Source of the DNA: a virus
Lineage: Duplodnaviria; Caudoviricetes
Virus record (IMG/VR): IMGVR_UViG_3300017649_000008
Span: 1-40,545 of that record
DNA length: 40,545 nt
Reading direction: 5' to 3' (one strand)
A program made the position numbers and the translations under genes. This document shows, piece by piece, positions 124-22,094 of this stretch (within the stretch, counting starts at the first letter, position 1; each line of letters starts with the position of its first letter). The notes beneath the pieces were generated by a model. It was not told the DNA's origin, made no database searches, and saw only the letters and a program-made list of their open reading frames with translations.

Positions 124-150
124 CATCAAAGAGACACGACAGACGAGTCT
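117..150. other. Left attachment junction (core TGATCAC 117-123 plus attP arm CATCAAAGAGACACGACAGACGAG)
   Basis: Arm is an imperfect inverted repeat of the right-end arm (TCGTCCGTCGTGT / ACACGACAGACGA); overlaps the integrase stop codon. Confidence 0.85.
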
Positions 151-1550
151 CCCCAGGTGGTGATGATCTCGGCTGCCGCGCCGGCCCTGGTGAGGCGAAT
201 CTGTTCGACCATGAGCCGCAAAGCACGGTTCTGCTCCGCGACGGTCATGCTCACCCACTGGCCGCGCAGCGAAGCGACCTGTTCAGCGGTGGGCCGTTTC
301 GAGTGCGCTCTGCCGGCGGCGGCGATCGCCGCACGCAGCGGACCCATCTCCTGCTCGAGCTCGGCACGGATGCGCATGAAGGTCGTGTCGGGCAGGATCC
401 CCTTCACGTTCTGCCGGCCCGCGGCCGCGAGCTCGGCTTCGAGTGCTTCCAGGTCGTGGTTCATGCGCGCGACCTCGGCGGCTTCGAGCGCTTCCCGGCG
501 GCGCTGCGCGGGCGGCAGTTCCGGTTCGAACGTCATCAGCCAGTCCACGATGGGAGGCTCGAGCGTCAGCCCGGAGACGTACGCGCGCTGCGGGTGCTCC
601 CGGGTGAGACGGTCGCCGCACAGGTACCCGCCGTACCACTTCCCTCCGGTGACGGCTCCCTTCCCGTGCATGTGACCGCCGCATTCGCACCTGACCAGCT
701 GGGACAGAAGGTAGGGCGATGTGGTGGGTTTCGCGCCGGTGGTGCGGCGCCGTTCCCGTTCCCGCAGGTATTCCTCTCGGGTGTCCGCGCTGATGATGCC
801 GTCGTGCGCGCCCGGGTAGACGGATCCCCGGTACGGGATGAGGCCGGCGTGGATCGGTGAGTCCATGACGGTGAACGGTCGCGCCCGGGTCCACGGCTTC
901 CCGTTCGGGCCGGGGATGCCTTGCGTGTTCAGCCACTGCGCGAGCGCGGCGGACCCCTCCCCGGCGAGGTAGCGGCGGTACATCTCTACGACGACGGGCG
1001 CCTTCTCGGGGTCGGGTTCGATGCAGTCCTTCCCCCACAGCCACCCGAACGGGAGTCGCCCGGACGCGGGCAGGCCGCGGGAAAGGCGCCGTTGACGGAT
1101 GTCCTCCCACACTTCCCCGATGAGTTCGGATTGGTAGGCGGAGAACTCGGTCATCACGCCGCGCGCGAATCGACCGGATGCGGTGGCGGTGTCGATGGGT
1201 TCCGTGGCGGCTTCGATGCGGCCTCCGGCGATGTCGGTCCGGTCGATCGCGAGCGCCCAGTCCTTCCGGGACCGGGATAGGCGGGACCACTTCCACAGGA
1301 CGATGACGTCGGCGGTGCCCTGCTCGATTGCGTCCATGGTGCGCTGCACCGCGGGCCGCTTCCATGTGCGGCCGGTGATGCCGGGGTCCGCTTCGACCCC
1401 GACGACCTGGTATCCGAGCCGTTCGCAGTAGTCCCGGCACGCGGTCTCCTGCAGCTCGAGGCTGATCGACTCCTCTTTATATGTCGACTGGCGGAGGTAG
1501 ATGATCGCGCGTTCGGGGGCGTTCGGAACGGCGCGGAGTCTAGGAGGCAT
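126..1550 (-). CDS. Large serine recombinase (phage integrase)
   Basis: IYLRQS catalytic Ser motif, SRLSRS, recombinase domain, CxC...C zinc ribbon and coiled coil; 474 aa at the prophage end. Confidence 0.95.
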   Translation of the reverse strand: MPPRLRAVPNAPERAIIYLRQSTYKEESISLELQETACRDYCERLGYQVVGVEADPGITGRTWKRPAVQRTMDAIEQGTADVIVLWKWSRLSRSRKDWALAIDRTDIAGGRIEAATEPIDTATASGRFARGVMTEFSAYQSELIGEVWEDIRQRRLSRGLPASGRLPFGWLWGKDCIEPDPEKAPVVVEMYRRYLAGEGSAALAQWLNTQGIPGPNGKPWTRARPFTVMDSPIHAGLIPYRGSVYPGAHDGIISADTREEYLRERERRRTTGAKPTTSPYLLSQLVRCECGGHMHGKGAVTGGKWYGGYLCGDRLTREHPQRAYVSGLTLEPPIVDWLMTFEPELPPAQRRREALEAAEVARMNHDLEALEAELAAAGRQNVKGILPDTTFMRIRAELEQEMGPLRAAIAAAGRAHSKRPTAEQVASLRGQWVSMTVAEQNRALRLMVEQIRLTRAGAAAEIITTWGDSSVVSL

Positions 1551-1983
1551 GGACGGTCCTGTGGTGCCACTGCCCGGCGCCCATCCGGGCGCGGACGTAG
1601 GTGGTATCCCCGAGCCGCAGCAGCAGGGCCCGGTAGGCGTCGACGAGTTCGACGGTGACGGCCAGGTCGTGCGCCATGGACGGGCTGTGCCCGCCGCGGT
1701 GCCGTTCGGCTTCGGCGTACGCGTCGGGTGTGATGAGACGGAGCGCGGCCCATTCGTTCGCGCGACGCTCCTGCTTCGCGCGGACGGGGCCGTGCGGGCT
1801 GGGGTGGTCCTGGAAGACGTGGTGCGCGATCTCGTGCGCGAGGACGGACCGTGCGACCCGGCGGGGCATGCGCGGGTCGAGGCGGATCGTGGATGTCCCG
1901 TGATGGTACCCGCCGAGGTGGCGGCCTGCCTTTTCGATCACGGTGAGCCCCAGTTCCTCGGCAAGCTGAAGCAGGTCCTGCAT
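1540..1983 (-). CDS. ImmA/IrrE family metallopeptidase (anti-repressor)
   Basis: Start re-called at MQDLLQLAEELG (ATG 1983); LAHEIAH HExxH motif and ERRANEWAA; lies between repressor and integrase. Confidence 0.88.
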   Translation of the reverse strand: MQDLLQLAEELGLTVIEKAGRHLGGYHHGTSTIRLDPRMPRRVARSVLAHEIAHHVFQDHPSPHGPVRAKQERRANEWAALRLITPDAYAEAERHRGGHSPSMAHDLAVTVELVDAYRALLLRLGDTTYVRARMGAGQWHHRTVHAS

Positions 1984-2006
1984 TCGCGGTCTTCCCCCAG
2001 AAAGAT

Positions 2007-2510
2007 CTACGAGTCGTACTTGTCGTCGGTGTCGCCCGGGTCGTAGTGGATCGACTCGGAGGCGACTTCGGCTAGATCCTCGGGGATGCCTCCGACAGGC
2101 GCCTTCGGGCGGATGTGGGTGATGTTCGATCCAGGCTCGCTGGTGTCCTCGATGTGCGCGGGTTCGGTGAGCGTCTCGGTGGCGGCGCCGGCCTGGATGC
2201 GGCGGAGGATCTCGGCGGACAGTTCGAGGTCGGTGTACTTCTCCAGGCCCCACTCGCGGGGCACTTCGAACCGGCCGATCTCGTCTGCGGTGAGGTAGCC
2301 GACTTCGGCGAGGGCATGGAGGGGGCTGTCGCCGAGGTTGCGGGCGACGGCGATGACAGTTTCGGCTTTCACTCCGCCGGTACCGCTGCGCCACTTGGAG
2401 AGCTGGCCGTCTGTGACGCCGGCGAGCTTCGCGAAGTCGGCTTGGCTGCGCTGCCCCATCCTCCGGTGAAGGTATTGGGCCCATCGCGTCCGGGTGTCTG
2501 CTTCTGACAT
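2007..2510 (-). CDS. Immunity repressor (XRE HTH, ImmR/CI-like)
   Basis: MSEADTRTRW...SQADFAKLAGVTDGQLSKWRSG HTH; divergent from a Cro-like gene. Confidence 0.85.
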   Translation of the reverse strand: MSEADTRTRWAQYLHRRMGQRSQADFAKLAGVTDGQLSKWRSGTGGVKAETVIAVARNLGDSPLHALAEVGYLTADEIGRFEVPREWGLEKYTDLELSAEILRRIQAGAATETLTEPAHIEDTSEPGSNITHIRPKAPVGGIPEDLAEVASESIHYDPGDTDDKYDS

Positions 2511-2642
2511 GCCACCAACGGTACTCCGATATTGCATGCCTGCAATGACTTTTCTTGGGAGAACCTTGATTTTCCGCGGGCGACACGCCGCGACCGTGTA
2601 ATGAGGGTTGCAACGCGGGAACTGATACATAGACTTTCTTGC
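2511..2642. promoter_or_regulatory. Divergent lysis/lysogeny control region with palindromic operator candidates
   Basis: Lower-GC spacer with ATTGCA-TGCC-TGCAAT (2531-2546) and CTTTC-TTGCAT-GAAAG overlapping the cro start. Confidence 0.6.
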
Positions 2643-2897
2643 ATGAAAGATTCTTCGACGGGAGAAGGCCCCCGGATCACCCTGAACCGGGAGAACCTCG
2701 ACCGCCTTCGCCGCGCGAACGGCATCGGAACCGAAGCGGAACTCGCCCGGATCCTGCAGGTATCCCCCACCACGCTGTGGCGCGTGTCGAACGGTGAGGT
2801 GGCCCCCTCCAACCAGTTCATCGCCCGCGCGCTCACGGCGTTCCCGCACACCCAGTTCGCGGTCCTGTTCACGGTTCAGCAGCCGGCGGCCGCGTGA
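2643..2897 (+). CDS. Cro-like HTH regulator
   Basis: MKDSST...TEAELARILQVSPTTLWRVSNG HTH; first gene of the rightward operon. Confidence 0.82.
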   Translation: MKDSSTGEGPRITLNRENLDRLRRANGIGTEAELARILQVSPTTLWRVSNGEVAPSNQFIARALTAFPHTQFAVLFTVQQPAAA

Positions 2898-4002: not shown

Positions 4003-4317
4003 GTGATCTACCTCCACGACAAGATCCTCCCCGAGCAGACGCCCAGCACGGCCGCCGAGCTCGACGACCAGCAGCTGCGCGTCACCACCCGCGAGTACCG
4101 GGAGCACCGCGCGCACTACGCCGCGATCGCCGCATATCTCCTGAACCTCGGCGAACGGTTCGTCCCCGAAGCCCGCGAGTTCGCCGCCGAGTTCGCCCGC
4201 CTCACACTCGCTGTCGACATTCTCAACACCGAGGAGCGCGCCCGTCACTCCGTGCCCGACCTGATCGTCTCTCTCCAGGCGGTCGCCGCTATCCACGCCG
4301 AACGGATGCACCCATGA
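4003..4317 (+). CDS. Hypothetical protein
   Basis: Fits the operon; ATGA overlap with the exonuclease. Confidence 0.6.
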   Translation: MIYLHDKILPEQTPSTAAELDDQQLRVTTREYREHRAHYAAIAAYLLNLGERFVPEAREFAAEFARLTLAVDILNTEERARHSVPDLIVSLQAVAAIHAERMHP

Positions 4318-5204
4318 ACGCGTACACCGTCGTCTGCGACGGCACCGACCGTGACCTTTGGCTCGAGAAGCGCCAGGGAGGCGTCACCGCGACCGACATC
4401 GCGCGCCTCGCCCGCGGCGGCGCGAACACGTGGGCCGCCGTGCACGCCGAAAAGGCCGGCAAAGAACGGCACTTCACGAACGCGGCCATGGAGCACGGCA
4501 AGACCCGCGAGCCCGTGATCGCCCGGTTCGCGCAGACCATGTACGGCCTCTACCACTCGACCGCGCTCCTCGCCTGGAACCCAGAAATGCGGTTCCTGGC
4601 GACACCGGACCTCCGCGGCGCGGGGAAGCACAAGGTCGGCGACATCAAGACCACAGTCCACGACTGGAACAGCCTCGACGACGTCCCCGGCCGGTACATC
4701 GACCAGCTGCTGTGGCAGATGCTCGTCGTCGGCGAGAAGCACGCGGCGCTGATCTTCGAGCCCCACGAGAACGGGATCCCGCTCTACCCGACCCCGAAGA
4801 TGCTCGTCGTCGAGTGGGATTCCGCGCGGGTCGCGAAGCTTCAGGAGACCGCGTACGAGTTCCTCGCCGAGGACGACACACCGGACGAGGACGCCGCGAC
4901 TCTCGACGCGCTCCTCACCGATGCGGCGATGCGGAAGGAACTCGCGGACGCTGCGGCGCTCTCTTACCAGCGTGCCGCCGCGGCGATCGAGGAGTACCTC
5001 GGCGGGAAGCCGCGCCGGTTCGCCGGGTCGGTCGCGTCCCTCACCCGCTCGGCCGACGGTGTCTCGACGACTCTCGACACCGCCCGCCTCAAGAAGGACC
5101 GCCCCGAGATCGCTGCGGAGTACACCCGCACCGCCCCGCGGAAGGGCGCGCTCCGCATCACCCTCCACACCGACCAGGACGACCAGACAGGAGCAGCAGC
5201 ATGA
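4314..5204 (+). CDS. YqaJ-like viral recombination exonuclease
   Basis: WLEKRQGGVTATD, AMEHGKTREP, LATPD, GDIKT and YIDQLLWQM motifs. Confidence 0.85.
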   Translation: MNAYTVVCDGTDRDLWLEKRQGGVTATDIARLARGGANTWAAVHAEKAGKERHFTNAAMEHGKTREPVIARFAQTMYGLYHSTALLAWNPEMRFLATPDLRGAGKHKVGDIKTTVHDWNSLDDVPGRYIDQLLWQMLVVGEKHAALIFEPHENGIPLYPTPKMLVVEWDSARVAKLQETAYEFLAEDDTPDEDAATLDALLTDAAMRKELADAAALSYQRAAAAIEEYLGGKPRRFAGSVASLTRSADGVSTTLDTARLKKDRPEIAAEYTRTAPRKGALRITLHTDQDDQTGAAA

Positions 5205-11223: not shown

Positions 11224-11702
11224 GGATCCTCACCGTTCGGCAGCCGTGGGCGTGGGCGATCATCCACGGCGGGAAGGACGTCGAGAACCGAGTCCGCAAC
11301 ATCGCCGGTGCGTACCGCGGGCCTGTAGCGGTCCACGTCGCCGGGAAGTATGCAGAGGGCGGTCTCGACCTCGCGGCGCTCGACGACGCGTGCGCGGACT
11401 GGTGCGAGGCGAACGACCCATGTGTGGGTAAGCAGCACCCGTGGCAGGCGAACGTCGGGAAGATCATCGGCGTCGTCGACCTCGTCGACGTGCACCGCCC
11501 GCTCTGGGACGGCTCGTGCAGCACAGAACGCGAGGGCGCGTGCTCGCCGTGGGCTGAGATCGGCGGCTGGCCGTGGCATCTCGTGCTCGCGAACCCGCGC
11601 CCGCTCGCTGAGCCGATCCCTTACCGGGGTGCGCTCGGCCTGCGGACGCTCGACGACGACACGACCGCGCGGATCCTCGCGCAGATCGGAGAGACAGCAT
11701 GA
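11220..11702 (+). CDS. ASCH domain protein
   Basis: ILTVRQPWAWAIIHGGKDVENR...YRGPVAVH...GKIIGVVDLVD...PIPYRGALGL. Confidence 0.88.
   Translation: MRILTVRQPWAWAIIHGGKDVENRVRNIAGAYRGPVAVHVAGKYAEGGLDLAALDDACADWCEANDPCVGKQHPWQANVGKIIGVVDLVDVHRPLWDGSCSTEREGACSPWAEIGGWPWHLVLANPRPLAEPIPYRGALGLRTLDDDTTARILAQIGETA
11662..11689 (+). repeat. 28-bp direct repeat, copy 1 (CGACCGCGCGGATCCTCGCGCAGATCGG)
   Basis: Identical to 12468-12495. Confidence 0.9.
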
Positions 11703-12508
11703 GCCTCGTCTACGAAGACGATTACGTGCGGCTGTACCAGGGCCGCTGGCAGGACCACGACATCGCCGCGATCGCCGGGCAGGCGGTGGATGCGATCGTA
11801 ACCGATCCGCCGTACGGCGAGACGAGCCTGGAATGGGATGCGTGGCCGACCGGGTGGCCGTCGGACGCGGCCGAGCTGACGAACGCGCTCTGGTGCTTCG
11901 GATCGTTCCGGATGTTCCACGATCACGCGCCCGAGTTCGCGGAGTGGAAGCTCTCGCAGGAGATCGTCTGGGAGAAGCACAACGGGTCAGGGTTCCACTC
12001 TGACCGGTTCAAGCGCGTGCACGAGCTCGCGGTGCTCTGGTACCGGGGCGACTGGGAGAACCTGCACCACGTCACCCCGACAACGCCGGACGCGACGCCG
12101 CGCACGGTGCGGCGCAAGACGCGCCCGACGCACACGGGGAACATTGAGGCGTCCGCGTACAGGTCGGAGGACGGCGGGCCGCGGCTGATGCGGTCGGTCC
12201 AGTACGTGCGATCGGAGCACGGCCGCGCGATTCACCCGACTCAGAAGCCCGAGGGCATCGTCGCGCCGCTGATCGAGTACAGCGTGCCTCTGGGCGGCCT
12301 GGTCGTGGATCTGTTCGCGGGGTCGGGCACGACCGCCGCAGTCGCTCGATCGCTCGGGCGAAAGTGCATCGCGTTCGAGCTCCGCAAGGACTACGCGCAG
12401 GCGGCGGCCCAGAGGCTCGCACAGCAGCCACTCGACTTCGCCGCGCTCGAACTCACGAGCGACGAGGCGACCGCGCGGATCCTCGCGCAGATCGGGGGCG
12501 CTCCGTGA
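11699..12508 (+). CDS. DNA N6-A/N4-C methyltransferase (beta class, orphan)
   Basis: TDPPY motif IV precedes HPTQKP and DLFAGSGTT motif I. Confidence 0.92.
   Translation: MSLVYEDDYVRLYQGRWQDHDIAAIAGQAVDAIVTDPPYGETSLEWDAWPTGWPSDAAELTNALWCFGSFRMFHDHAPEFAEWKLSQEIVWEKHNGSGFHSDRFKRVHELAVLWYRGDWENLHHVTPTTPDATPRTVRRKTRPTHTGNIEASAYRSEDGGPRLMRSVQYVRSEHGRAIHPTQKPEGIVAPLIEYSVPLGGLVVDLFAGSGTTAAVARSLGRKCIAFELRKDYAQAAAQRLAQQPLDFAALELTSDEATARILAQIGGAP
12468..12495 (+). repeat. 28-bp direct repeat, copy 2
   Basis: Identical to 11662-11689; both encode TARILAQIG. Confidence 0.9.
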
Positions 12509-14579: not shown

Positions 14580-14942
14580 GTGACCCGCATCGAGGACCAG
14601 CACCACCTCACCTACCTCACCCAGTGGATGGGCGACCCGCAGCTGCCGCTCCAAGTGGCCCGAGCCCGCTATGACGTCCCGATGCCCCGCTCGTGGGAGG
14701 TGTTCGCACGCGAGACGCCGACATGCGATGTGCCGATCGCGGAGTTTACCGAGTGGGCGGAGGCACAGAAGTGGGCGGACGCGATGTCCTGCTGGGCCGC
14801 CGCCAACGGCGCGGACGTGCGCCGATACAAGCACGGGTACTGGCCGAGCGGCCGCTGGGGCGGCATCGGCTACTTCGACCGCAACGGCGGGTACCACGAG
14901 CTGCCCGATCCCGAACCGGCCGAACAGCAGGAGGCCGCGTGA
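14580..14942 (+). CDS. Hypothetical protein
   Basis: GAGGAG RBS; MTRIEDQHH... Confidence 0.55.
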   Translation: MTRIEDQHHLTYLTQWMGDPQLPLQVARARYDVPMPRSWEVFARETPTCDVPIAEFTEWAEAQKWADAMSCWAAANGADVRRYKHGYWPSGRWGGIGYFDRNGGYHELPDPEPAEQQEAA

Positions 14943-14971
14943 AGGAGTGGATCACCGTCGCCGAAGCCGCG

Positions 14972-15148
14972 TCAGCGTTCGCGAGCCGCCTTCATCGCAC
15001 CGGTGTGACTCATCCCCACGGCCGCACCGATCTCGCGCCACGAGTGCCCGGCCGCGTGCGCCTGCCGCATGAGCTCAGCGCGCCGCGCCGGCATCGCATC
15101 CATGCGCGCCTGGAACGCCTTGAGCGCCTCGATCGTGTCATCCGTCAC
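14972..15148 (-). CDS. Small HTH regulator (58 aa), probably leaderless
   Basis: MTDDTIEAL...AAGHSWREIGAAVGMSHTGAMKAAR; resembles 38022-38207. Confidence 0.75.
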   Translation of the reverse strand: MTDDTIEALKAFQARMDAMPARRAELMRQAHAAGHSWREIGAAVGMSHTGAMKAARER

Positions 15149-15211
15149 GGTAACCAAGGTTACCAGACGTGCTATTCTGGAAACCAGAGTTACCACACCT
15201 CAGGAGTCCCC
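15149..15211. promoter_or_regulatory. Divergent promoter/operator: GGTAAC-CAAG-GTTACC and GGAAAC-CAGA-GTTACC flanking an extended -10 TGCTATTCT
   Basis: Palindromes at 15149-15164 and 15179-15194; AGGAG RBS at 15202. Confidence 0.7.
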
Positions 15212-15673
15212 ATGAGCTTCGAGATGTACCGCTGCCCCGCCTGCAACGTCGTGTCACCCGCGTTCGACGGCGCCCCGTTCCAGTGCCGCAACGACAACTG
15301 CGGCGAGGACGCCGAGAAGCGCGCGAACCCGCCCGACCACGAGACCCGCGAGGGAGTCATGCGCGACCACGCGCTCGTGTACTACCTCGCCCTCGGCAAC
15401 CGCGTGAAGATCGGCACCACCACCGACCTCCCCGGCCGCATGAAGGCCGTCCCCCACGAGGAGCTCGTCGCATTCGAGTTCGGCAGCTACACGCAGGAAC
15501 GGAACCGACACCAGCAGTTCGCGCACGCCCGCATCACCGGAGAATGGTTCGACCGCTCAGACCCGGAACTCGCCGCGTTCATCGAGACCCTGCGAGCGGA
15601 CCTCGAGTTCCCCGACGACGTATCCAGGTCAGCAACCCGCGCCGTCAAGCGCCGCCTGTTGGGACTCGCCTGA
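15212..15673 (+). CDS. GIY-YIG (T5orf172-like) nuclease domain protein with N-terminal Zn ribbon
   Basis: CPAC...CRNDNC; LVYYL..RVKIGTTTDLPGRM...ERNRHQQF..RITGEWF. Confidence 0.75.
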   Translation: MSFEMYRCPACNVVSPAFDGAPFQCRNDNCGEDAEKRANPPDHETREGVMRDHALVYYLALGNRVKIGTTTDLPGRMKAVPHEELVAFEFGSYTQERNRHQQFAHARITGEWFDRSDPELAAFIETLRADLEFPDDVSRSATRAVKRRLLGLA

Positions 15674-20018: not shown

Positions 20019-22094
20019 GTGGCGCTGTTCGTCCCGAACCCCGAAGCCGAGTCCGTCGAGGAGATCATCGAGCAGCTGTCCCTCGAGCTTGCCCGCGCGT
20101 ACCGGGAAGCTGAGGACGAACTGATCCGGGAGATCGCGATCCGCGCCGCCCGTGACATGGACCTCGCCGCCGGTCTCCCCGTTCCCACGTTCGGGCTCAC
20201 CCCGGAGAACCGGCGCCGGCAGAACCGGATCCTCGCGGAGCTCGCCGCGCACCGCGCGCAGGCGGTCCGTGAGCTGCAGGACATCGCCGTCGCGATCGTG
20301 GAACGGCTGCGCGTGTCGGACATGGCCCGCCGCATCATCGAGATCGCCGCGACCGAGGGGGAAGCCGCCGCCGCGGCGCAGCTCGGCCTCGCCGGACGCG
20401 AGCCGGGCACGGTGGTGCCGATCACGTTCCTCGGTACCCGCACCGGGATCTCTGCCGTGTCAATGTCGGGGTCGGCGTCGCAGGCGGTCGCGATGGTCGC
20501 GCTGTCGTTGCAGTCGCGCCTCGAGGTGCTGAATCAACGGATCACCCGGTACCCGCAGGACGCGTACCAGCGGATCGTCGCTTTGTATTCGCCGAACACG
20601 CTCCTCGGGATCACGACGTCGCGGGTGCAGCAGGCGCAGTCGGTGCAGCGGTTCCTCGCGGAGGGCATCACCGGGTTCGTCGACAAGTCGGACCGGCGGT
20701 GGACGATCGGTGCCTATGCGGAGATGGCCGGCCGTACGAGTGTGAATCGGGCGTACAACGACGCCGCGGTGTGGCGGATGCAGCAGTCCGGGATCGGGCT
20801 GGTCACCGTCGTCCGCGGTCTGGATTCGTGCCGGAAGTGCGCGGAGTGGGCGGGGAAGATCCTCTCCACCGACGGCACCCCGCCGGGCCCTGTGACGCTC
20901 CCCCACGCGACGAAGTCCGGCACGGTGACGGTCAACGTCGCCGCGACGGTCGACGGGGCCCGGAACGCGGGCTGGGGGCACCCGAACTGCTTCCCGGGCT
21001 GGGTGCCTGTCTCAGCGCCGACTGGCGTGACCGCGGCGGACTCGCGATGGTTTGAGGGCGAGCTCGTCGTCATCCACACCGCCGGCGGTCGAGAGCTCTC
21101 CGTCACCCCAAATCATCCGGTACTGACGGACGAAGGATGGGTCGCGGCGGGTGCGCTCGTGGAAGGCGACAACCTCGTCAGCTACAGCGGGGATGTCGAG
21201 CGGCCACTTACGAGTGACCCAGACCATGAGGGTGTTGAAGCCAGCATTCGCGAGGTCTACGAGGCGCTGCGGCAGTCGGGCCATGTGTCGGCCGTCGCGG
21301 TGCCAGGTGCCGCCGAAGACTTCCACGGCGACGGTTCCGCCGACGCCGAGGTCGAGGTTGTACTTGCCGACCGCCTGCTGCGGAGTGACGGCGAGCCCAC
21401 GGCCTTGCAGCTCCCGGCCGAGAGCGATCTCCTCCTCGGTCGCGTGCGAGAGCGCGAGTTGCTTGCCGTAGGCGCGGCGCTCGAGGTCTTCCATCGTGCG
21501 GGTCATCCCACGGACGGCGTCGTGCGCGGCGGCGGCGAGGCGGGCGCGCTCTTCGGGGCTGGTCTGAGCCATGCGGACACGCATGGACGCGGATTGGTCG
21601 CGGAGGTCGACGCCGGCGGCGCGGAGGCGGCGCGTGATCGTGTCGCGGGCGACACCGTGCTCGCGAGCGAGTTTCAGGACGCTCTCACCGGCCTCGTATC
21701 GACGGATCAGATTGTCAGTGTCGAGCGCAACGCGTTCGCTGGCCATGTCTACAATCTCCAGACTGCTGGGGGTTGGTATACCGCCGATTCTATCATCGTG
21801 CACAACTGCCGGTGCCGTCTCGTCCCCTACCTGCCGGGCTTGACGGTCCCGCAGGGCGACACGACGTACGACGAGGTCGCCGAGCGGGAACGCGCCGAGC
21901 AGCGGCGCTTGGAGCGGGAGATCCGCGCGGCGAAGCGTCGCGAGGCGACCGCGATGAACGACGCGGACCGTGCACGTGCCGCGCGGGAGGTTCGCGAGGC
22001 GCAGGCCGAGATGCGTGGGTTCATCGAGCAGACCGGCCGACACCGGCAGTCGTACCGCGAGCAACTTCACTTCGCCGATGGCCGGCGGTCCTGA
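20019..22094 (+). CDS. Minor capsid / head morphogenesis protein (SPP1 gp7/MuF-like) containing an intein
   Basis: After the portal; GFVDKSDRRWTIGAYAEM, CRKCAEWAGKILS, HPN|CRC split by the intein, QRRLEREIRAAKRR. Confidence 0.88.
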   Translation: MALFVPNPEAESVEEIIEQLSLELARAYREAEDELIREIAIRAARDMDLAAGLPVPTFGLTPENRRRQNRILAELAAHRAQAVRELQDIAVAIVERLRVSDMARRIIEIAATEGEAAAAAQLGLAGREPGTVVPITFLGTRTGISAVSMSGSASQAVAMVALSLQSRLEVLNQRITRYPQDAYQRIVALYSPNTLLGITTSRVQQAQSVQRFLAEGITGFVDKSDRRWTIGAYAEMAGRTSVNRAYNDAAVWRMQQSGIGLVTVVRGLDSCRKCAEWAGKILSTDGTPPGPVTLPHATKSGTVTVNVAATVDGARNAGWGHPNCFPGWVPVSAPTGVTAADSRWFEGELVVIHTAGGRELSVTPNHPVLTDEGWVAAGALVEGDNLVSYSGDVERPLTSDPDHEGVEASIREVYEALRQSGHVSAVAVPGAAEDFHGDGSADAEVEVVLADRLLRSDGEPTALQLPAESDLLLGRVRERELLAVGAALEVFHRAGHPTDGVVRGGGEAGALFGAGLSHADTHGRGLVAEVDAGGAEAARDRVAGDTVLASEFQDALTGLVSTDQIVSVERNAFAGHVYNLQTAGGWYTADSIIVHNCRCRLVPYLPGLTVPQGDTTYDEVAERERAEQRRLEREIRAAKRREATAMNDADRARAAREVREAQAEMRGFIEQTGRHRQSYREQLHFADGRRS
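21012..21746 (-). CDS. Antisense intein-nested HTH + Vsr/DUF559-like (EDxHD-type) endonuclease, 244 aa
   Basis: LIRRYEAGESVLKLAREHGVARDTITRRLRAAGV HTH; TEEE...QQAVGKYNLDL..VAVEVFGGTWH...LANAGFNTLMVW nuclease pattern; GGAG RBS. Confidence 0.8.
   Translation of the reverse strand: MASERVALDTDNLIRRYEAGESVLKLAREHGVARDTITRRLRAAGVDLRDQSASMRVRMAQTSPEERARLAAAAHDAVRGMTRTMEDLERRAYGKQLALSHATEEEIALGRELQGRGLAVTPQQAVGKYNLDLGVGGTVAVEVFGGTWHRDGRHMARLPQRLVDLANAGFNTLMVWVTRKWPLDIPAVADEVVAFHERTRRDPSFVRQYRMIWGDGELSTAGGVDDDELALKPSRVRRGHASRR
21756..21795 (-). promoter_or_regulatory. Antisense extended -10 promoter (TG-A-TAGAAT, 21795-21787) and RBS (TGGAG, 21760-21756)
   Basis: Embedded in the intein block F/G codons, upstream of ATG 21746. 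Confidence 0.6.

What the first reader, a model, noticed from the sequence alone, without database searches (positions are those of the whole stretch)
20988..21806. Intein whose putative homing endonuclease is encoded on the opposite strand, with its own promoter
Seen in sequence: the minor capsid ORF carries a canonical intein (C1 at 20988, TPNH, VYNL, HN/C at 21806) inserted in the HPN|CRC motif. The plus-strand central region, where an endonuclease normally sits, shows no LAGLIDADG or HNH motif and reads like antisense shadow text. The minus strand, in exact codon register, encodes a coherent 244-aa protein (21746-21012): an N-terminal HTH, a helical linker, then a Vsr/DUF559-like nuclease pattern (E..E, Q..VGKY.LD, VAVEVFGGTWH, L...GF..L.VW). 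It has a GGAG RBS 9 nt upstream and a TGnTAGAAT extended -10 written into the intein's block F/G codons. Its last ~60 codons overlap the N-terminal splicing blocks, so that stretch would be functional on both strands. Established knowledge: intein homing endonucleases are normally in-frame domains of the intein, and Vsr-like (EDxHD) homing endonucleases are known from phage introns. Inference: this is a two-strand selfish element. Protein splicing hides the insertion, while a separately transcribed nuclease provides homing or attacks intein-free competitor phages, uncoupled from late capsid expression. I know of no description of this architecture but cannot verify novelty.
Basis: partly seen in the sequence, partly recalled or inferred. 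Interest (0 to 1): 0.93.

Follow-up and report, generated by a model that had tools for sequence, protein, structure and literature searches.

The report
Intein with antisense Vsr-like nuclease gene
A phage minor-capsid gene carries an intein whose opposite DNA strand encodes a conserved Vsr-fold protein, likely the DNA-cutting enzyme that spreads the intein and likely transcribed from a promoter written into the intein's own end; the layout is real and common in phages but was described in a 2025 preprint.

Summary
The minor-capsid ORF (20019-22094) carries a 273-aa intein (20988-21806). Its opposite strand, codon against codon, encodes a 244-aa HTH plus Vsr-fold protein (21746-21012; best fold match Vsr 1cw0, Z 10.4). 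In 7 of 7 groups of relatives the central region is under purifying selection on the antisense strand (pN/pS 0.24-0.47) and near-neutral on the sense strand (0.77-1.02). Patchy distribution and a ~98% identical intein in ~84% identical flanks fit homing. The architecture is not new: Gosselin et al. (bioRxiv 10.1101/2025.01.02.630785) describe full inteins with anti-sense VSR-like endonucleases, minor-capsid inteins among their non-canonical cases, and this scan has met it on other DNA many times. Not in that preprint's main text: a -10 box in the block G codons (P=0.009 here; 32 of 43 in a replication set, controls 2 and 0 of 43), the start codon supplied by the block F His, and block B coding a nuclease beta-strand. 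Transcription, splicing and cleavage are untested.

The parts
20019..22094 (+). Minor capsid / head morphogenesis gene (Phage_min_cap2), 691-aa precursor
   Evidence: PF06152 E 3e-29; phrog_581 minor head protein E 1.3e-53
20988..21806 (+). Intein, 273 aa, Cys1 ... His-Asn, followed by Cys+1, at HPN|CRC
   Evidence: empty alleles at the same site in 44 of 49 relatives that span it
21012..21746 (-). Antisense gene, 244 aa: HTH, helical linker, Vsr-fold nuclease domain
21621..21719 (-). N-terminal helix-turn-helix (residues 10-42)
   Evidence: HTH_7 E 3e-4; GcrA DBD Z 7.1
21081..21449 (-). Vsr/DUF559-like nuclease domain (residues 100-222) with E106, D132, E142, H149
   Evidence: (1cw0_A Z 10.4, rmsd 2.5, 115 aligned; 3r3p_B Z 9.0, rmsd 3.0, 95 aligned)
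21105..21125 (.). Intein block B (TPNHPVL) that reads QYRMIWG on the other strand, a predicted beta-strand of the nuclease; dual-coded
21787..21795 (-). Extended -10-like box TG-A-TAGAAT in the intein's block G codons (predicted promoter, 40 nt upstream of the ATG)
   Evidence: (P=0.009); family-wide replication
21744..21759 (-). SD-like GGAG and start ATG, the reverse complement of block F codons; the ATG is the His codon CAT
   Evidence: (SD not beyond shuffles)

Best explanation
This is an intein in a phage minor-capsid gene whose opposite strand encodes a conserved HTH plus Vsr-fold protein, likely its homing endonuclease, likely made from a promoter inside the intein's 3' end. Shown: both frames are open and in register; selection acts on the antisense strand in the centre and on the sense strand in the splicing blocks; the fold is Vsr-like; -10 boxes in the block G codons exceed chance across the family; empty alleles exist and the intein is scattered over the host-gene tree. 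Inferred: (1) the 691-aa precursor splices to a 418-aa capsid protein (from class 1 residues); (2) host RNA polymerase starts near 21780 on the minus strand, so the nuclease is made independently of the late head operon; (3) the protein binds the empty HPN-CRC site through its HTH and linker and cuts or nicks near it; (4) repair from the intein-bearing genome during co-infection, or superinfection of a lysogen, copies the whole element with its promoter and start signals, since these lie inside the intein.
For: Fold: 1cw0_A Z 10.4, 3r3p_B Z 9.0, 3hrl_A Z 9.0 as the top three of 48,161 chains; profile hits 3hrl E 2.5e-6 and 3r3p E 0.0022. Selection: central region antisense pN/pS 0.24-0.47 versus sense 0.77-1.02 in 7 of 7 groups; blocks F/G sense 0-0.79. 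Frames: host frame open over the match in 51 of 51 loci and 80 of 80 further loci, antisense frame open in 79 of 80. E106, Y129, N130, D132, E142 invariant in 46 of 46. Promoter: P=0.009 here, P<0.05 in 18 of 46 (extein codon usage) or 16 of 46 (intein usage), and 32 or 20 of 43 new loci versus 2 and 0 of 43 control segments. Mobility: 6 intein-bearing rows among 50 need 6 changes, at least 5 forced by well-supported branches; run X3 holds the intein with 15-20 differences in 819 nt beside a C-extein with about 40 differences in 257 nt. The preprint reports the same fold matches and transfer-like patterns for two VSR-like clusters.
Against: No transcript, protein, splicing or cleavage data. 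The residues matching I-Bth0305I D222 and N208 are L158 and F144 here, and the D222 column holds no Asp among its six commonest letters in 46 or 117 rows; D222N stops cleavage in I-Bth0305I (PMC3239194). H149 is kept in only 28 of 46 of the diverse set. The window's box lacks a -35 and sits 5 nt from the family's commonest position; three close relatives (L002-L004) do not pass the shuffle test (P 0.10-0.22), nor do the 14 distinct inteins among L015-L032 other than L031. Foldseek alone gave no match at E<=0.001 (best 0.019). Among 13 differences in the ORF between the window and X3, 7 change the nuclease. Patchiness can also come from repeated loss.
Confidence: 0.7

Rival explanations
1. The nuclease is kept mainly because it damages co-infecting or superinfecting intein-free phages (interference competition), with homing as a side effect. 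Not exclusive of the best explanation.
For: The phage looks temperate (serine recombinase, IrrE-like protease, HTH_3 repressor-like gene), and a host-type promoter could fire in a lysogen. An intron endonuclease of phage PhiPA3 is reported to do this (PMC11620839, start of abstract seen).
Against: The intein is in only 5 of 49 extein relatives, not fixed as a strong benefit might predict. No direct data.
Confidence: 0.15
2. The protein is a real gene product but catalytically weak or dead, acting as a DNA-binding regulator; the intein moves by ordinary recombination.
For: D222 and N208 equivalents are absent; PHROGs matches only 'DNA binding protein' families.
Against: Three acidic residues at the Vsr metal site positions (E106, D132, E142) are invariant in 46 of 46 and 115-117 of 117 rows (the latter set partly chosen by those motifs). 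The near-identical intein in divergent flanks has sharp borders near the insertion site.
Confidence: 0.08
3. The gene is real and active, but the -10-like box in this copy is not used; expression comes from read-through of an antisense promoter outside the intein.
For: No -35 in the window; several relatives lack a significant box; the antisense frame is open up to 22070.
Against: Family-wide excess of boxes at two fixed positions, 45 and 26 nt upstream of the start, against clean controls; complete TTGACA-17-TATA(A/G)T promoters in L007, L134, L139.
Confidence: 0.06
4. The antisense ORF is a shadow of a GC-rich sense frame and not a gene.
For: An open in-register frame has probability about 0.2 in this genome.
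Against: Nuclease and HTH homology, fold, antisense-specific purifying selection, and open frames in low-GC relatives where chance is as low as 1e-13.
Confidence: 0.01

Closest known systems
Full inteins with an anti-sense VSR-like homing endonuclease in actinobacteriophages (Gosselin, Arsenault, Gogarten; bioRxiv 10.1101/2025.01.02.630785; abstract, sections 8, 12, 15 and passages read; supplements closed)
   Same: Contiguous intein, Vsr-like nuclease on the opposite strand, long helical stretch before the nuclease, matches to 1CW0 (their Z 10.6, here 10.4) and 3R3P; all their minor-capsid inteins are non-canonical. The 225-aa REQ3 minor-capsid intein they name carries a homologue of this protein antisense.
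   Different: [quoted passage not shown] Their survey covers actinophages; this family also occurs in Salmonella, Escherichia, Pseudomonas, Klebsiella, Vibrio and Edwardsiella phages.
I-Bth0305I / EDxHD homing endonucleases (PMC3239194; passages and section 17 read)
   Same: N-terminal DNA-binding region plus C-terminal Vsr-like domain; E170, D196, H213 map to E106, D132, H149.
   Different: Encoded in a group I intron; D222 and N208 are not kept here; N-terminus is a resolvase-type HTH rather than NUMOD repeats.
Vsr-like endonucleases between split-intein halves ('fractured genes', PMC2677866; search listing and passages read)
   Same: Vsr-like nuclease gene associated with an intein and expressed as a separate ORF.
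   Different: There the intein is split and the nuclease gene is free-standing between the halves; here the intein is contiguous and overlapped on the other strand.
Anti-sense LAGLIDADG inteins (Ssp DnaX, Cau SpoVR; known to me only as cited in the preprint) and the out-of-frame HNH of the ShiLan insertion (PMC11855218, passages read)
   Same: Endonuclease hidden in another frame inside an in-frame insertion.
   Different: Different nuclease families; ShiLan has no splicing domain and uses the same strand.
Annotated MuF inteins said to lack an endonuclease (Escherichia phage Snoke gp4; Methylococcus Mu gp30 intein, PMC517821 passage)
   Same: Intein in a head morphogenesis gene. Snoke's intein belongs to this family and has the open antisense gene, unannotated.
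   Different: The Methylococcus intein was not fetched, so its membership is untested.

Membership tests
Class 1 intein | Cys/Ser at position 1, block B TxxH, terminal His-Asn, Cys/Ser/Thr at +1 (features recalled from general knowledge) | tested here: met
   C1, T40-P-N-H43, H272-N273, C+1
Class 1 intein | In-frame insertion relative to empty alleles of the host gene | tested here: met
   44 of 49 relatives spanning the site are empty at HPN|
Class 1 intein | Protein splicing activity | not testable with these tools
   No assay
Inteins with anti-sense VSR-like HEN (Gosselin et al.) | Full, contiguous intein with no in-frame endonuclease | tested here: met
   sense pN/pS near 1 in the centre
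Inteins with anti-sense VSR-like HEN (Gosselin et al.) | ORF on the opposite strand whose product matches Vsr (1CW0) and 3R3P | tested here: met
Inteins with anti-sense VSR-like HEN (Gosselin et al.) | Sequence homology to inteins in their dataset | tested here: met
   REQ3 minor-capsid intein, 225 aa as in their text, antisense match E 2e-6. Their label for REQ3's nuclease is in supplements I could not see.
EDxHD homing endonucleases | Vsr-like catalytic fold | tested here: met
   3r3p_B Z 9.0, rmsd 3.0, 95 aligned
EDxHD homing endonucleases | E170, D196 and H213 equivalents | tested here: met
   E106, D132, H149 (alignment, numbering); His kept in 28 of 46 diverse and 113 of 117 closer rows
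EDxHD homing endonucleases | Final Asp (D222, Vsr D97) and N208 | tested here: not met
   L158 and F144 by profile alignment; columns are mostly F/L/Y/T/A and F/W/H. So it works like, but is not filed as, a strict EDxHD member.
EDxHD homing endonucleases | Cleavage next to the insertion site of the empty allele | not testable with these tools
   No assay; the flanks show weak dyad symmetry, 6 of 8 pairs centred at the junction
MuF / SPP1 gp7 minor capsid (IPR006528, TIGR01641) | Profile match above the curated cut-off | tested here: inconclusive
   TIGR01641 E 0.0024, below cut-off; Phage_min_cap2 above cut-off; shares the HxNCRC-type site with MuF-annotated phages

The most novel reading that the evidence does not exclude
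The splicing motifs double as the nuclease gene's hardware: block G codons form its sigma-70-type promoter, the block F His codon is its start, and block B codes one of its beta-strands. The element is then one inseparable two-strand gene, not a free-standing nuclease dropped between splicing blocks as the preprint's model has it. It is an old, very large family (about 1100 matching stretches estimated in IMG/VR) across Actinobacteria and Gammaproteobacteria phages, with a variant Vsr active site (E-D-E-H, no final Asp), expressed early or in lysogens while its host gene is late.
Probability: 0.5. Interest if true: 0.6.

Novelty: new member of a known kind. Interest (0 to 1): 0.36.

Why it matters
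The layout itself is published, so this copy adds little as a discovery. The added detail makes an open question testable: how a nuclease hidden antisense in an essential late gene gets expressed. The predicted start site, start codon and target allele are specific, and cultured phages carrying the family exist (Escherichia phage Snoke, Gordonia phages, Jerseyviruses). It also matters for annotation: many head-morphogenesis inteins read as endonuclease-less or decayed hide an intact gene under selection, and long natural sense/antisense codon-register overlaps with constraint on both strands are rare test beds for overlapping-gene evolution.

Tried and rejected
Single-sequence PDB search with the nuclease: 0 hits at E<=1; the profile was needed. 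Foldseek 'pdb': no match at E<=0.001, top rows Vsr and 3r3p at E 0.019. Consensus promoter scan: 0 sites, because it needs a -35. SD test: not beyond synonymous shuffles in the window (P 0.7-0.8) and P<0.05 in only 2 of 46 with extein usage, so I rejected the RBS as evidence of selection. Stop-codon avoidance in the window: uninformative (chance about 0.2). Block B codon test on all 46 inteins (42 of 44) was partly circular because one search pattern was QYRMIWGD; I repeated it on sets not chosen by that pattern (15 of 17 GenBank loci, 5 of 5 extein-selected loci). Sequencing runs: no RNA holder listed; the runs labelled RNA-Seq are probably DNA and are contigs, so they say nothing on strand or start. 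Genome-contig scan with the single protein gave 1 locus, the same contig as L008. Co-conversion tract search between L062/L054, L062/L053 and L074/L073: no clear step in mismatch density. Earlier-findings look-ups by sequence and by place returned nothing. No complex prediction was run.
Full report
Observation. The window is a 40,545-base virus record of 68.7% GC with a serine recombinase, an IrrE-like protease and an HTH repressor-like gene, so probably a temperate phage; an actinobacterial host is my inference from GC content and relatives. Between portal-like and scaffold-like genes lies ORF 20019-22094 (691 aa; Phage_min_cap2 E 3e-29). Residues 324-596 form an intein: Cys1 at 20988, TPNH, HVYNL, His-Asn ending at 21806, Cys+1. 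The reverse strand, codon against codon, reads 244 aa from the ATG at 21746 to the stop at 21012, with an HTH at residues 10-42 and an MTES_1575 restriction-endonuclease-like match at 109-182. GGAG lies 9 nt before the ATG and TG-A-TAGAAT at 21795-21787.

Is the antisense ORF a gene? An open frame alone is weak evidence here: given the phage's codon usage it arises with probability about 0.2. Four tests settle it. (1) Homology: tblastn finds 117 of 50,697 phage records (Salmonella 62, Gordonia 15, Pseudomonas 15, Klebsiella 8, Vibrio 3 and others), and a profile scan of IMG/VR confirmed 540 relatives among 600 candidate stretches in 36 of 64 parts, about 1100 matching stretches estimated in all. 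(2) Context: in 51 of 51 loci first examined the in-register host frame is open across the match; after dropping two partial loci and one duplicate, all 49 rows (window included) are inteins at an Hxx|CxC-type head-morphogenesis site or a variant of it. In 80 further loci, six of them repeats of earlier ones, the host frame is open in 80 and the antisense frame in 79; 55 were parsed automatically as full inteins and most of the other 25 show the intein motifs by eye. No free-standing copy was seen among these. In low-GC relatives chance of an open frame falls to 1e-4 to 1e-13. (3) Selection: in 7 of 7 groups of close relatives the central region has antisense pN/pS 0.24-0.47 and sense 0.77-1.02, and blocks F/G show the reverse in six groups (sense 0-0.79, antisense above 1.3 in five, undefined in one, 0.34 in one pair) (pairwise counts, not corrected for phylogeny). 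(4) Fold: the AlphaFold2 model (28 sequences, mean pLDDT 86) matches Vsr 1cw0_A at Z 10.4 (rmsd 2.5, 115 aligned, residues 100-222), I-Bth0305I 3r3p_B at Z 9.0 and 3hrl_A at Z 9.0, the top three of 48,161 chains; the profile finds 3hrl at E 2.5e-6 and 3r3p at E 0.0022. Foldseek ranked the same chains first but only at E 0.019.

Active site. By the profile alignment to 3r3p and the numbering in PMC3239194 (passages and section 17), E106, D132 and H149 match E170, D196 and H213. N208 and D222 align to F144 and L158. E106, Y129, N130, D132 and E142 are invariant in 46 of 46 distinct sequences, H149 is kept in 28; in 117 closer rows the counts are 115, 116, 116, 117, 117 and 113, and the D222 column shows no Asp among its six commonest letters (68 of these rows were found with patterns that include YNxD and AVE). 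D222N blocks cleavage in I-Bth0305I. So this is a Vsr-fold nuclease with a variant site, probably using E142 as a third acid (inference), and I do not file it as a strict EDxHD member.

Expression signals. The start ATG is the reverse of the block F His codon. In the first set the chosen start falls on a His codon in all 46 distinct inteins and is CAT in 43 (19.4 expected from extein usage, though I preferred ATG/GTG when picking); in an independent set, located from the intein motif alone, CAT is used in 25 of 34 (13.1 expected). The window's own exteins use CAT for 8% of His. The SD-like GGAG comes from the N-L-Q/E codons and is not beyond synonymous shuffles (window P 0.7-0.8). The -10 box is: scoring with a sigma-70 matrix (base frequencies recalled, not from a call) against 1000 synonymous shuffles, the window gives P=0.009 under both extein and intein codon usage, and 18 or 16 of 46 inteins give P<0.05. 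In 43 new, distinct inteins (from 55 parsed, after dropping duplicates, two mis-parsed repeats and two without the motif) 32 or 20 give P<0.05, against 2 and 0 of 43 for equal-length control segments from the intein centre and N-terminus (250 shuffles). The best boxes cluster 45 or 26 nt before the start. Guernseyvirinae-type phages have TGTGC-TATAAT from the I-I-A-H-N codons; L007, L134 and L139 have TTGACA-17-TATA(A/G)T; L010-L013 have -35/17/-10 arrangements in an insertion between blocks F and G. Against this: L002-L004 and the L015-L032 group do not pass, the window's box has no -35, and relatives are not independent samples. No RNA data could test it.

Dual coding. The antisense ORF ends at intein residue 2-26 in 48 of 49 rows and 7 codons into the N-extein in one, so it always reads through block B. 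Block B, TPNHPVL, reads QYRMIWG on the other strand, a predicted beta-strand (residues 208-213) inside the span aligned to Vsr. The Val/Ile codon after TxxHP ends in A, giving antisense Tyr, in 15 of 17 GenBank loci and 5 of 5 loci found by the extein alone, against 17% (70 of 402) for other Val/Ile codons of that region; the window's exteins use GTA for 1% of Val. Over the whole N-terminal overlap the antisense pN/pS is 0.53-0.80 in five groups but 1.14 in the window's own group and 2.27 in one close pair, so dual constraint is shown for block B, not for all 60 codons.

Mobility. Of 51 loci found with the N-extein, 49 span the site: 5 carry the intein, 44 are empty. On the N-extein tree the six intein-bearing rows need six changes, at least five forced by well-supported branches, and sit next to near-identical empty alleles (L062 with L053/L054, L074 with L073). 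In run X3, two abutting contigs of similar depth, which I take to be one genome, match the intein with 15-20 differences in 819 nt, the C-extein with about 40 differences and 2 gaps in 257 nt, and diverge from 30 nt upstream of the intein (X4 of the same study repeats this). That fits recent transfer of the intein; repeated loss would explain the tree but not this contrast. The 15 listed differences do not discriminate between strands (12 sense-synonymous; 6 of 13 antisense-synonymous).

Comparison with what is known. Gosselin, Arsenault and Gogarten (bioRxiv 10.1101/2025.01.02.630785; abstract, sections 8, 12, 15 and term passages read) report full inteins with VSR-like endonucleases on the anti-sense strand, with matches to 1CW0 (Z 10.6) and 3R3P, state that their minor-capsid inteins all have non-canonical endonucleases, and name a 225-aa intein in the REQ3 minor capsid, which I find is 225 aa and carries a homologue antisense. 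They cite older reports of anti-sense LAGLIDADG inteins, which I did not read. It is the only paper holding 'intein', 'anti-sense' and 'VSR-like' together in the library; searches showed no other description in their listings. This scan has also met the layout before: 105 earlier findings in at least 93 genomes hold my search words, and the eight shown reach the same verdict; these are unchecked notes, not support.

Verdict. Real, under selection, probably mobile, and a new member of a kind described in 2025. The details beyond the preprint's main text are the promoter in block G, the start in block F, the dual-coded block B, the variant active site and the spread into gammaproteobacterial phages. 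Interest 0.36; about 0.6 if the promoter and cleavage predictions are confirmed.

Noticed in passing
L071, L072, L076, L078, L093, L094, L095, L097, L103 (insertion site): 9 of 44 empty alleles read HPN-Asp-Arg-Cys instead of HPN-Cys. Asp at +1 would not support splicing, so these alleles may be closed to the intein; some sit beside near-identical Cys alleles (L093/L103 with L092). Could be resistance or a neutral swap of metal ligands.
   Followed up: no
L010-L013, intein C-terminus: These inteins have about 13 extra codons between blocks F and G whose reverse strand forms a -35/17/-10 promoter arrangement.
   Followed up: partly
L005, L007, L014, L031, L035, L038, L041, L043-L046: Longer inteins (295-327 aa) grow by about 50 codons that add a second HTH-like repeat to the antisense protein, while the sense frame stays open.
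   Followed up: partly
L037 (Rhodococcus phage REQ3): Ala1 intein of 225 aa whose antisense protein lacks the HTH (181 aa) but keeps the nuclease core.
   Followed up: partly
L035, L040 and hit H5 (Gordonia phages Angelicage, Keitabear, Affeca): The preprint names these phages in its paragraph on endonuclease VII-like inteins, but their MuF genes match the Vsr-like antisense protein here. It may refer to another intein; supplements not seen.
   Followed up: no
L048:1108-1917 (Salmonella phage PK2): One GenBank record annotates the antisense gene as a hypothetical protein; the other 16 fetched regions do not list it.
   Followed up: yes
L139: The only one of 80 loci with a stop inside the antisense match, although it has one of the strongest promoter-like sites: possibly a recently inactivated copy.
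   Followed up: no
window 126-2849: Serine recombinase (126-1550, minus), IrrE/ImmA-like metallopeptidase (1540-2613, minus) and HTH_3 repressor-like gene (within 2007-2849, minus): a lysogeny module.
   Followed up: partly
window 11699-12508, 4314-5204, 14693-15673: N6/N4 DNA methylase, YqaJ-like recombinase domain and a weak MUG113 (GIY-YIG-like, label recalled) match.
   Followed up: no
L180: The N-terminus of this intein does not show the usual Cys1 block at the expected distance from block B; not examined further.
   Followed up: no
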